Assembly: GCF_045037415.1 (NCBI RefSeq)
Contig: NZ_CP173438.1
Origin: Escherichia coli
Lineage (GTDB): Bacteria; Pseudomonadota; Gammaproteobacteria; Enterobacterales; Enterobacteriaceae
DNA length: 64,000 bases
Strand: one strand, 5' to 3'
A model generated the notes under the pieces. That model saw only the letters and a list, made by a program, of their open reading frames with translations, made no database searches and was not told the DNA's origin. A program made the translations under genes and the position numbers. Below, in pieces: positions 52,231-59,275 of this stretch (its first letter is position 1; the number at the start of each line of letters is the position of its first letter).

Positions 52231-53895
52231 TCAGGCTACCTTTTCGACAGAAACGTCGGCATCAGGGCGGGTCAGCGTCATCACCGACGCCAGTTTATTC
52301 AGGGTCTTGCCCAGGGTTTGCGGAATGGCGGTGGCGGCAACAAAGCGATCCGGGCGCATCACCACCAGCGAAGCATTGTGTTGCGCGAACCAGCTACGCA
52401 GGCGACCTTGCGTATCCCCCACGCGTAGTACGCCGTCGTGGTTATCCTGTGCGGTATGAATTTGCACTTCCGGCACCACCTGAATGAAGCGTGTGCCCAA
52501 CGCGCGCCACTGCTGGATTTGCTCGTCGCTCATCCCCCACAGTGGATTGCATCCCCAGCCAATTACCGCGAAGTTCGCGCCGATCGCGTTATCGAGTAGC
52601 GTCACGTCGCCGTTTTCCAGCGTGACTTTCGGCTGAATAAACATCTTGCCGACCGGAGAGTGCTTCGCTTCGCCCTCACGCACCAGCGCACCGCCGTAAT
52701 ATTGCGGCATCGGCTTGAAGCGCATTTCGAGGAAGTAGCGTTTTACTGGCGGCAGATAATTCAGCAGCCAGGAAACGCCGTCACGTAACGTACCCTGCCA
52801 GCGTTTCGGCGGAGCCAGCACGTTGCCCGCCGTCACGGACAGGTCAATCATCGCTTTGGCGTGATCGCGACGTTCTTGTTGATAGGTATCGAGCAGCGCA
52901 TCGCGGGCTTTCCCCTGGATAACCAACGCCAGTTTCCATGCGAGGTTAAAGGCGTCGCGCATACCACTGTTATAGCCCTGCCCCTGCCACACCGGCATGA
53001 TGTGCGCGGCATCGCCCGCCAGCAGTACGCGATCAATACGAAAACGTTGCGCCAGTCGCGCGTTGTGGGTGTAGACACGCTGGCGAATCAATTCAACATT
53101 GTCCGGATTAGGCAGCACTTTGCTTAACAGCTTGCGCATATTTTGCGGCTCACGCAGCTGTTCTTCGGTTTCTCCCGGCATCACCATAAATTCAAAGCGA
53201 CGTACCGCATGAGGCAGCGCGGCAGAAACATACGGGCGCACCGGATCACAACACAAATAGATATGCGGCGTACTTAACGGATCGTTGGCGATATCTACCA
53301 CAATCCACTGATTTGGCGCAGTTTTACCTTCAAACGGCACATTCAGGGTGCGACGGACAAAACTTGCCCCACCATCACAGGCCACCAGCCACTGGGCTTT
53401 GACCGTTTCCCGCTGCCCTTCTTCCGTTTTCAGGTGCAAGGTCACTTCGTCATCTTGCTGGCTGAAGGCCTCCAGCTCGCGGGAAAACAGGCAGCGCACA
53501 TTCGGAAAACGCGACAATCCTTCCAGCATCACCGCATCGACCTGAGGCTGAATAAAGGCGTTACGGCGCGGCCAGCCAAATTCATCGGTCATTGGCTGAA
53601 TATCAGCAAAACAGCGACCTTTTGGGGTGAGAAAACGCATCGCGTGCCACGGCGTAGTGTGCGGCAGAACATTATCGACCAGGCCAACCGACTGCATGGT
53701 GCGCAGCGCCTCGTCATCAATACCAATCGCACGCGGGTAGTCGATCAACTTATCGAGTTTCTCCACCACCAGCACGTCAATGCCCATCTGGCCGAGATAG
53801 TTCGCCATCATCAGCCCGACCGGACCGGCACCAGCGATCGCCACCTGAACGCTATGGTTAACAGCAGGCTGGATGTCAGGGTGTTGTATTGCCAT
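52231..53895 (-). CDS. mhpA: 3-(3-hydroxyphenyl)propionate hydroxylase (FAD monooxygenase), 554 aa
   Basis: ORF translation [47 protein letters not shown]... (FAD-binding GxGxxG). Confidence 0.95.
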
Positions 53896-54036
53896 TTCAG
53901 TACCTCACGACTCGGACAAAATGCCGTTGCGCGCACAGTACAGCGCAACTTATTTTGTTAAAAACATGTAAATGATTTTTTATTGTGCGCTCAGTATAGG
54001 AAGGGTGTTTTCGGCTACAATCAAAACATGCCCGAA

Positions 54037-54053
54037 TGTGCACCAGGTGCACA
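54037..54053. promoter_or_regulatory. 17-bp palindrome TGTGCACCAGGTGCACA, candidate MhpR operator in the mhpR-mhpA divergent region
   Basis: Perfect inverted repeat (8-bp arms around a central base) between divergent mhpR and mhpA; consistent with an IclR-type activator site. Confidence 0.55.
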
Positions 54054-54085
54054 ACGTTGTTTTAACTATATAAATGTCAATTAAT

Positions 54086-54919
54086 ATGCAGAACAATGAG
54101 CAGACGGAATACAAAACCGTGCGCGGCTTAACCCGCGGTCTAATGTTATTAAATATGTTAAATAAACTTGATGGCGGTGCCAGCGTCGGGCTGCTGGCGG
54201 AACTCAGCGGCCTGCATCGCACCACTGTGCGGCGACTGCTGGAGACGTTACTGGAAGAGGGATATGTCCGGCGCAGTACCTCCGATGACAGTTTTCGTCT
54301 GACCATCAAAGTGCGGCAATTAAGCGAAGGATTTCGTGACGAACAGTGGATTTCTGCACTGGCGGCCCCGCTGCTGGGCGATCTGTTGCGCGAAGTGGTA
54401 TGGCCGACAGATGTGTCCACGCTGGATGTTGATGCAATGGTGGTACGCGAAACCACCCATCGTTTCAGCCGCTTATCTTTTCACCGGGCAATGGTCGGGC
54501 GACGGTTACCGCTTCTGAAAACCGCCTCGGGCCTGACCTGGCTGGCCTTTTGCCCGGAACAAGAACGCAAGGAATTAATCGAGATGTTAGCCTCCCGCCC
54601 CGGTGATGACTATCAACTGGCACGAGAACCGTTAAAGCTGGAAGCCATTCTGGCGCGCGCGCGCAAAGAGGGGTACGGACAGAACTACCGCGGCTGGGAT
54701 CAGGAGGAGAAGATCGCCTCTATCGCCGTACCGCTGCGCAGTGAACAACGGGTGATTGGCTGTCTGAATCTGGTGTATATGGCGAGCGCAATGACCATCG
54801 AACAGGCAGCGGAAAAGCATCTTCCGGCGCTGCAACGGGTGGCAAAACAGATCGAAGAAGGGGTTGAATCGCAGGCTATTCTGGTAGCGGGAAGGCGAAG
54901 CGGCGTGCATTTACGCTGA
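54086..54919 (+). CDS. mhpR: IclR-family transcriptional activator of the mhp operon, 277 aa
   Basis: ORF 54074..54919; internal Met gives MQNNEQTEYKTVRGLTRGLMLLNMLNKLDGGASVGLLAELSGLHRTTVRRLLETL... Confidence 0.93.
   Translation: MQNNEQTEYKTVRGLTRGLMLLNMLNKLDGGASVGLLAELSGLHRTTVRRLLETLLEEGYVRRSTSDDSFRLTIKVRQLSEGFRDEQWISALAAPLLGDLLREVVWPTDVSTLDVDAMVVRETTHRFSRLSFHRAMVGRRLPLLKTASGLTWLAFCPEQERKELIEMLASRPGDDYQLAREPLKLEAILARARKEGYGQNYRGWDQEEKIASIAVPLRSEQRVIGCLNLVYMASAMTIEQAAEKHLPALQRVAKQIEEGVESQAILVAGRRSGVHLR

Positions 54920-56162: not shown

Positions 56163-59275
<3,113 letters not shown>

What the first reader, a model, noticed from the sequence alone, without database searches (positions are those of the whole stretch)
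54037..54053. Perfect 17-bp palindrome between divergent mhpR and mhpA
TGTGCACCAGGTGCACA sits in the 190-bp mhpR-mhpA control region and is the obvious candidate for the MhpR (IclR-family) activator site. A TGTAAATGA motif about 40 bp away might be a degenerate CRP half-site.
Basis: partly seen in the sequence, partly recalled or inferred. Interest (0 to 1): 0.2.

Follow-up and report, generated by a model that had tools for sequence, protein, structure and literature searches.

The report
Known MhpR operator of mhp promoter
The palindrome is the already published DNA site where the regulator MhpR binds to switch on the E. coli genes for degrading 3-hydroxyphenylpropionate, so it is real and functional but ordinary.

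Summary
TGTGCACC-A-GGTGCACA lies at 54037-54053, in the 190-bp spacer between mhpA (- strand) and mhpR (+ strand) of an E. coli window.

It matches the published MhpR operator of K-12, GGTGCACCTGGTGCACA (Torres 2003, as cited in PMC8222616), at 16 of 17 bases. One SNP at 54053 makes this strain's copy perfect. The perfect form is the majority E. coli allele: at least 2829 genomes, against 1504 with the K-12 type.

In 77 of 80 mhpR orthologue loci, from Escherichia to Pseudomonas, a GTGCAC-N3-GTGCAC core (69 exact) sits in front of mhpR. It lies 25 bp from a conserved TTG (-35). A TATACT-type -10 pointing into the catabolic genes follows 16-18 bp further on. The operator centre therefore falls near -58/-59 of the mhpA promoter.

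The stems never show compensatory changes, which fits protein readout rather than a hairpin.

TGTAAATGA is 62 bp away, not 40. It is one of seven equally weak CRP-like matches (6 of 10 core bases). It also lies downstream of the inferred mhpA transcription start.

Verdict: already known, low interest.

The parts
54037..54053 (.). MhpR operator: the dyad TGTGCACC-A-GGTGCACA. The constrained core is two GTGCAC hexamers (54038-54043 and 54047-54052) 9 bp apart.
   Evidence: Searches give the sequence. Searches show a 16 of 17 match to the published K-12 operator. Searches show the core conserved in 77 of 80 orthologue loci.
54015..54020 (-). Inferred -35 hexamer of the mhpA promoter Pa (TTGTAG on the - strand).
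   Evidence: TTG lies at a fixed 25-27 nt from the operator centre in 72 of 77 loci. It is invariant in the enteric alignment A2.
53993..53998 (-). Inferred -10 hexamer of Pa (TATACT on the - strand), 16 nt downstream of the -35.
   Evidence: A TATACT, CATACT, TAGAAT or TATAAT hexamer lies 16-18 nt after the -35 in 75 of 77 loci; the other two have TAAAAT and TATCCT. It is invariant in A2.
53986..53987 (-). Inferred Pa transcription start, which places the operator centre at about -58/-59.
   Evidence: Inference from the position of the -10 hexamer. It agrees with my recollection of -58 in Torres 2003. It was not measured here.
54072..54093 (.). Weak candidate CRP site AAATGTCAATTAATATGCAGAA, centred at 54082.5 (about -95.5 of Pa). 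It overlaps the mhpR ATG.
   Evidence: It has 6 of 10 core matches. TGTCA is conserved in Escherichia, Citrobacter and some Kluyvera. The position matches my recollection of the published CRP site. CRP binding needs MhpR. Not verified.
54057..54064 (+). Conserved flank TTGTTTTA next to the operator, at +12 to +19 from its centre. Role unknown.
   Evidence: Information content is 1.0-1.8 bits at seven of the eight positions across 77 loci (0.7 bits at +15), and the block is visible.
54086..54919 (+). mhpR, encoding the IclR-family regulator.
   Evidence: Searches give the annotation. One search finds HTH_IclR (E 2.5e-13) and IclR_C (E 1.2e-12).
52231..53895 (-). mhpA, first gene of the regulated catabolic operon.
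   Evidence: A divergent mhpA lies next to mhpR in about 60 of 80 orthologue loci.
53967..53975 (+). It sits in a conserved enteric block in the inferred mhpA leader and is not shown to be a CRP site.
   Evidence: 6 of 10 core matches, centre 53974.5. (TGTRAAT invariant in enterics).

Best explanation
The palindrome is the operator of MhpR, the IclR-family activator encoded by the adjacent mhpR gene.

Proposed mechanism:
- An MhpR dimer (or a dimer of a tetramer) reads the two GTGCAC hexamers arranged as the dyad tGTGCACy-n-rGTGCACa.
- The site is centred about 58-59 bp upstream of the start of the weak mhpA promoter Pa (-35 TTGTAG, 16-bp spacer, -10 TATACT).
- With the inducers 3-hydroxyphenylpropionate, dihydroxyphenylpropionate or phenylpropionate, operator-bound MhpR activates Pa.
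- MhpR is also needed for cAMP-CRP to occupy a poor CRP site next to it, most likely upstream at about -95.5. This makes mhpABCDFE both inducer-dependent and glucose-repressible.

Status of each step:
- Taken from the literature: operator identity, inducer dependence, and the MhpR requirement for CRP binding.
- Shown here: identity with the published sequence, the one-base difference from K-12, allele frequencies, cross-genus conservation and the fixed promoter geometry.
- Inferred: the exact transcription start, the dimer-per-dyad readout and the position of the CRP site.
For: - Published operator GGTGCACCTGGTGCACA (Torres 2003, quoted in Table 1 of PMC8222616) equals the K-12 sequence at this position. 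The window differs only at 54053.
- MhpR has HTH_IclR and IclR_C domains.
- Aromatic inducers stimulate MhpR binding to its operator in the mhpABCDFE promoter (PMC11237407).
- MhpR is a 3HPP-dependent activator of Pa and is essential for CRP binding (PMC8753852).
- The GTGCAC-N3-GTGCAC core lies upstream of mhpR in 69 of 80 loci exactly and 77 of 80 relaxed. All 12 hexamer positions are at 1.76-2.0 bits.
- Only 4 further exact copies occur in 447 kb of locus sequence. The one I checked precedes mhpB.
- TTG lies 25-27 nt from the centre in 72 of 77 loci, and a -10-like hexamer lies 16-18 nt further on in all 77 (TATACT, CATACT, TAGAAT or TATAAT in 75).
- Where mhpA is not the neighbour, the divergent gene is still an mhp gene: mhpB or mhpD.
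- A Burkholderia MhpR group has ATGTGCATagaATGCACAc at -41 of mhpR. The E. coli centre-to-ATG distance is also 41.
- The flanking preferences (T at -8 with A at +8; Y at -1 with R at +1) fit dyad symmetry.
Against: - The primary papers (Torres 2003, Manso 2009) are not held. The footprint limits, the -58 position and the CRP position rest on secondary citations and my memory.
- No transcription start data could be retrieved, so the Pa start is inferred from hexamers. The generic promoter scan found no sigma-70 consensus match in the spacer, as expected for a weak, activator-dependent promoter.
- Binding of MhpR to the perfect allele has not been measured.
- Two Vibrio orthologue loci (L022, L030) lack the motif.
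Confidence: 0.93

Rival explanations
1. The palindrome is, or is also, an NtrC binding site that links nitrogen status to mhp or mhpR expression.
For: - NtrC genomic SELEX gave a strong peak (88% relative intensity) assigned to the mhpR/mhpA spacer at map position 367,650 (PMC8743547). By my conversion of older K-12 coordinates, which is my own knowledge and unverified, that is about window 54080, roughly 35 bp from the operator centre.
- The NtrC consensus TGCACCAnnnTGGTGCA shares its half-sites with the palindrome: TGCACCA on the + strand and TGCACCT on the - strand.
Against: - No match to the 17-bp NtrC consensus with 3 or fewer mismatches exists in the spacer. The half-sites are 1 nt apart here, not 5.
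- The evidence is in vitro only, and the array resolution is coarse.
- Conservation tracks mhpR and mhp catabolic promoters rather than nitrogen genes.
Confidence: 0.1
2. The palindrome acts as an RNA hairpin, either a terminator or attenuator or a leader structure in an mhpR transcript that starts upstream of it.
For: - The terminator-like scan flags TGTGCACCAGGTGCACA followed by ACGTTGTTTT on the + strand.
- The operator is always within about 30-50 nt of the mhpR start in most loci, so an mhpR transcript may well include it.
Against: - The hairpin is only -9 kcal/mol, with z = -0.72 against shuffles.
- The stems are invariant, with no compensatory changes in 77 loci, while the outer pair (positions +/-8) is often non-complementary. 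That is the signature of base-specific protein readout.
- No gene ends here on the + strand.
- No Rfam family matches.
- The mhpR promoter is reported as constitutive and independent of MhpR and inducers.
Confidence: 0.03
3. It is a chance palindrome with no function.
For: One perfect 8+1+8 palindrome per 64 kb is what chance predicts: observed 1, expected about 1.06.
Against: It is identical to a published operator. It is also conserved in 77 of 80 orthologue loci, against a chance expectation of about 3e-5 per locus.
Confidence: 0.01

Closest known systems
MhpR operator of the E. coli K-12 mhp Pa promoter (Torres, Porras, Garcia and Diaz 2003, J Biol Chem 278:27575)
   Same: Same locus, same position in the 190-bp mhpR-mhpA spacer, and 16 of 17 bases identical. 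The same regulator gene lies next door.
   Different: K-12 reads GGTGCACCTGGTGCACA, with 7 of 8 arm positions complementary. The window reads TGTGCACCTGGTGCACA on the mhpA strand, a perfect dyad, through one SNP at 54053. The perfect form is the commoner E. coli allele and matches the cross-genus consensus.
Predicted MhpR-group motif of Burkholderia xenovorans (Bxe_B2330), from the IclR comparative genomics study PMC8222616
   Same: A TGT-N11-ACA type dyad, ATGTGCATagaATGCACAc, at -41 of mhpR and also upstream of the divergent gene. Position and overall shape are the same.
   Different: The half-site core is GTGCAT/ATGCAC rather than GTGCAC/GTGCAC.
Operators of other IclR-family regulators of aromatic catabolism (PobR, PcaU, PcaR, HmgR)
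   Same: Dyad-symmetric sites of 15-21 bp in divergent regulator/catabolic-gene spacers. PMC8222616 groups them with MhpR.
   Different: The half-site sequences differ (for example GTTCGAT, GTCCGAT). PcaU, PobR and HmgR have an extra external direct half-site repeat, and no such GTGCAC third copy is seen here. The conserved flank here is TTGTTTTA, which is unrelated to the half-site.
NtrC enhancer sites (TGCACCAnnnTGGTGCA)
   Same: They share the half-site hexamers TGCACC and GGTGCA. An in vitro NtrC SELEX peak falls in this spacer.
   Different: The half-site spacing is 1 nt rather than 5. There is no consensus match with 3 or fewer mismatches.

Membership tests
MhpR operator (IclR-family activator site of the mhp catabolic promoter) | Sequence matches the experimentally defined operator GGTGCACCTGGTGCACA. 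| tested here: met
   16 of 17 bases identical. The K-12 sequence at the homologous position is the published string.
MhpR operator (IclR-family activator site of the mhp catabolic promoter) | Lies in the spacer between mhpR and the divergent mhp catabolic operon. | tested here: met
   It lies in the 190-bp spacer between mhpA and mhpR. The arrangement is the same in orthologues.
MhpR operator (IclR-family activator site of the mhp catabolic promoter) | Positioned upstream of the -35 of Pa, at an activator position near -58. | tested here: met
   The centre lies 25 bp upstream of the conserved TTG, with a -10-like hexamer 16-18 bp further on. The transcription start is inferred, not measured.
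MhpR operator (IclR-family activator site of the mhp catabolic promoter) | The cognate regulator has an IclR-type winged helix-turn-helix and effector domain. | tested here: met
   HTH_IclR at 50 bits and IclR_C at 48 bits, both above the curated cut-offs.
MhpR operator (IclR-family activator site of the mhp catabolic promoter) | Co-conservation of the site with regulator orthologues. | tested here: met
   Present in 77 of 80 loci, and extra copies precede mhp genes.
MhpR operator (IclR-family activator site of the mhp catabolic promoter) | Direct, inducer-stimulated binding by MhpR protein (EMSA or DNase I footprint). | not testable with these tools
   Known only from the literature, as summarised. 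The primary papers are not held.
   The best register, ACATGTAAATGATTTTTTATTG, has 6 of 10 core matches: left half TGTAA 4 of 5, right half TTTTA 2 of 5. Seven sites in the spacer score the same.
   The centre, 53974.5, lies about 12 bp downstream of the inferred Pa start. Its position relative to the mhpR promoter cannot be judged, because that start is unknown.
Intrinsic terminator | A GC-rich stem followed by a U-run at the 3' end of a transcription unit, with a stem maintained by pairing. | tested here: not met
   Flagged by the pattern scan. However, the T-run is interrupted, no + strand gene ends here, the fold is not better than shuffles, and there is no compensatory variation.
NtrC binding site | Match to TGCACCAnnnTGGTGCA. 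| tested here: not met
   No match with 3 or fewer mismatches in the spacer. Only overlapping half-sites at the wrong spacing are present.

The most novel reading that the evidence does not exclude
The functional site may be larger and more variable than the published 17-mer. Three observations point that way:
- The invariant flanks (TTGTTTTA at 54057-54064 and the A-tract at 54023-54026) could be extra contacts for an MhpR tetramer or a partner protein.
- The perfect-dyad allele carried here and by most E. coli could bind MhpR more tightly than the K-12 laboratory allele, changing inducibility between strains.
- The strong in vitro NtrC SELEX signal could reflect real competition or co-regulation by NtrC at the same hexamers.
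Probability: 0.15. Interest if true: 0.3.

Novelty: already known. Interest (0 to 1): 0.08.

Why it matters
This is a textbook-type operator that was characterised in 2003, so it changes nothing fundamental. The work here adds three small points:
- The laboratory K-12 operator is the minority, slightly imperfect allele. Most E. coli, and the cross-genus consensus, carry the perfect dyad.
- The constrained core is GTGCAC-N3-GTGCAC at a fixed 25 bp from the -35 TTG, from Escherichia to Pseudomonas. This gives a clean model for MhpR-based biosensor design.
- The CRP site that MhpR helps to fill must be very weak by sequence.

Tried and rejected
- Reading the primary papers (Torres 2003 by DOI; Manso 2009 as PMC2755845; Ferrandez 1997 as PMC179006; Tropel and van der Meer as PMC515250): none is held.
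- Retrieving measured transcription starts for mhpA or mhpR from the Cappable-seq and SMRT-Cappable-seq supplements, and from Thomason 2015: nothing found or not held.
- Full-text search for the candidate CRP-site strings: only the operator string is found, in PMC8222616.
- The generic sigma-70 promoter scan of the spacer found nothing. The promoter was instead inferred from cross-species conservation.
- A CRP consensus scan found no site better than 6 of 10 core matches, so the CRP site cannot be fixed by sequence alone.
- NtrC consensus search: no match in the spacer.
- Rfam scan: only sub-threshold noise.
- RNA hairpin and terminator reading: rejected on energy and the lack of covariation.
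- I could not locate the mhpR promoter Pr. TACAAT at 54016-54021 looks like a + strand -10, but across genera the conserved part is CAA (TTG on the - strand). That fits the Pa -35 better.
- RNAalifold on the mhpA leader alignment gave no consensus structure, although the single-sequence folds do.

Full report
**Observation**

The window is E. coli, 100% identical over 801 bp to several non-K-12 strains. The locus is present in 4896 of 5426 complete genomes. mhpA runs on the - strand (52231-53895). mhpR runs on the + strand from ATG 54086, giving 277 aa as annotated in K-12. lacI and lacZ follow. The spacer 53896-54085 is 190 bp.

TGTGCACCAGGTGCACA is at 54037-54053. It has two 8-nt arms, 100% complementary, around a central A at 54045.

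The window contains exactly one perfect 8+1+8 palindrome, and about 1.06 are expected by chance in 64 kb. The palindrome alone is therefore not statistically remarkable. What matters is where it lies, an expectation of about 0.003 for one 190-bp spacer, and how it is conserved.

**Identity**

Table 1 of the IclR-family comparative study PMC8222616 lists the experimentally determined MhpR motif of E. coli as GGTGCACCTGGTGCACA, citing Torres et al. 2003. Aligning the window spacer with K-12 MG1655 shows that this string is the K-12 sequence at exactly this position. The window differs by one base: A at 54053 where K-12 has C on the + strand. This turns a 7-of-8 dyad into a perfect one.

Allele-specific 39-mers find the perfect form exactly in 2829 complete E. 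coli genomes (3247 including near matches) and the K-12 form in 1504.

The neighbouring gene product has HTH_IclR and IclR_C domains. No MhpR structure has been solved. The nearest PDB relatives are generic IclR-family proteins.

**Independent evidence from related loci**

A scan of one genome per species returned 80 loci encoding MhpR relatives at 54-98% identity. They come from Escherichia, Citrobacter, Kluyvera, Pseudomonas, Azotobacter, Marinobacterium, Nitrincola and others.

- An exact GTGCAC-N3-GTGCAC lies within 450 bp upstream of mhpR in 69 loci. A one-step-relaxed form is present in 77. Only two Vibrio loci truly lack it.
- All 12 hexamer positions carry 1.76-2.0 bits. The central three bases vary. 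Position -8 is T in 52 of 77 loci and position +8 is A in 56 of 77. Positions -1/+1 are mostly T/A or C/G.
- GTGCAC is self-complementary, so the core is both a direct and an inverted repeat. The flanking preferences are complementary across the centre, which fits dyad symmetry.
- No compensatory changes occur within the stems, and the outer pair is often non-complementary. This is the pattern of base-specific protein readout, not of a maintained hairpin.
- In 447 kb of locus sequence the exact core occurs 73 times: 69 in front of mhpR and 4 just after it. In Marinobacterium sediminicola the extra copy precedes mhpB.
- About 60 loci have mhpA divergent from mhpR. Where they do not, the divergent gene is still an mhp gene, mhpB or mhpD.
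- The supplement of PMC8222616 already reports a related dyad, ATGTGCATagaATGCACAc, at -41 of Burkholderia mhpR. The centre-to-ATG distance in E. coli is also 41.

**Promoter geometry**

I stacked the loci on the operator. On the catabolic side this shows a TTG at a fixed 25-27 nt from the centre in 72 of 77 loci. The hexamer is TTGTAG in E. coli (window 54020-54015 on the - strand) and TTGTCG, TTGATG or TTGCTG elsewhere. A TATACT, CATACT, TAGAAT or TATAAT hexamer lies 16-18 nt further on in 75 of 77 loci, and the other two carry TAAAAT and TATCCT (window 53998-53993). Both elements are invariant in the enteric alignment.

This defines a weak sigma-70 promoter reading into mhpA, with a start near 53986/7. 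The operator centre then falls at about -58/-59. That agrees with my recollection, which I could not verify, that Torres et al. place the site at -58.

The generic promoter scan finds nothing in the spacer. That is expected for a 3-of-6 -35 hexamer with a 16-bp spacer that depends on an activator.

**Mechanism**

The literature held here supports the following:
- Aromatic inducers (3HPP, PP, DHPP) stimulate MhpR binding to its operator in the mhpABCDFE promoter, while the mhpR promoter is constitutive (PMC11237407).
- MhpR is a 3HPP-dependent activator of Pa and is essential for CRP binding there (PMC8753852).

My scan finds no CRP-like site better than 6 of 10 core matches anywhere in the spacer. 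That fits a site needing help to be occupied. One of these weak candidates, AAATGTCAATTAATATGCAGAA, is centred at 54082.5, exactly 37.5 bp beyond the operator centre. That corresponds to the -95.5 I recall from the paper. Its TGTCA half is conserved in Escherichia, Citrobacter and some Kluyvera. I regard this as the probable CRP site, but it is unverified.

TGTAAATGA is at 53967-53975. It is 62 bp from the palindrome edge, not about 40. It belongs to another 6-of-10 candidate centred at 53974.5. It lies at about +12 to +20 of the inferred mhpA transcript, which is the wrong side for activating Pa. It is conserved in enterics as TGTRAAT, and as TGTGAAT in several Citrobacter. Something constrains it, but I cannot say what.

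**Rivals**

- NtrC. Genomic SELEX gave a strong peak (88%) in this spacer, and NtrC half-sites (TGCACC and GGTGCA) are embedded in the dyad. However, no consensus match with 3 or fewer mismatches exists, the spacing is wrong, and conservation follows mhp genes.
- Hairpin or terminator. The pattern scan flags it, but the fold is -9 kcal/mol with z = -0.72. There is no covariation, no Rfam match, and no + strand gene ends here.
- Chance. Excluded by the conservation.

**Verdict**

This is the already known MhpR operator. Interest is low. The small additions are the allele survey, the cross-genus core and geometry, and the correction of the CRP remark.

Noticed in passing
window 54053 (also 54071 and 53924): One SNP relative to K-12 makes the operator a perfect dyad. 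The perfect allele is exact in 2829 complete E. coli genomes and the K-12 type in 1504. It also matches the cross-genus consensus, with A at +8 in 56 of 77 loci.
   Followed up: yes
window 54057-54064 and 54023-54026: The flanks TTGTTTTA (right of the operator) and AAAA (left) are nearly as conserved as the operator across Enterobacteriaceae and Pseudomonas. They are not symmetric about the dyad. Their role is unknown; candidates are extra MhpR contacts, DNA bending or an UP-like element.
   Followed up: partly
window 53926-53949 (- strand, mhpA 5' UTR): The mhpA leader contains a stem-loop, GTTGCGC...GCGCAAC (-12 kcal/mol, z = -2.6). In 12 of 14 enteric species a hairpin folds at the same place with different stem sequences, for example AATTGC/GCAATT and GCGCG/CGCGC. 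RNAalifold on the MAFFT alignment found nothing, probably because the alignment is out of register.
   Followed up: partly
Its function is unknown. It could belong to the unmapped mhpR promoter region or to the mhpA leader.
   Followed up: partly
window about 54080 (K-12 map position 367,650 in older coordinates): Published NtrC genomic SELEX lists the mhpR/mhpA spacer among its strongest peaks, at 88% (PMC8743547). The operator contains NtrC-like half-sites at non-canonical spacing, and there is no consensus match.
   Followed up: partly
L041 ~2678, L046 3300-3316, L058 ~3330, L080 ~3350: A second exact copy of the operator core lies just downstream of mhpR in Marinobacterium and in one Pseudomonas. 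In L046 it precedes mhpB and a flavin-type monooxygenase gene.
   Followed up: partly
L022 and L030 (Vibrio cincinnatiensis, V. furnissii): These MhpR relatives (69-74% identity) have no GTGCAC-N3-GTGCAC within 450 bp upstream and no adjacent mhpA. They may have a different operator or a different role.
   Followed up: no
window 54074-54088: mhpR has no obvious Shine-Dalgarno sequence before ATG 54086. An in-frame ATG at 54074 would give 281 aa. The ATG at 54086 is invariant in enterics.
   Followed up: no
window 56299-56316: An 18-bp perfect palindrome, TTTCGCCAGCTGGCGAAA, lies inside the 5' part of lacZ. It is probably chance.
   Followed up: no
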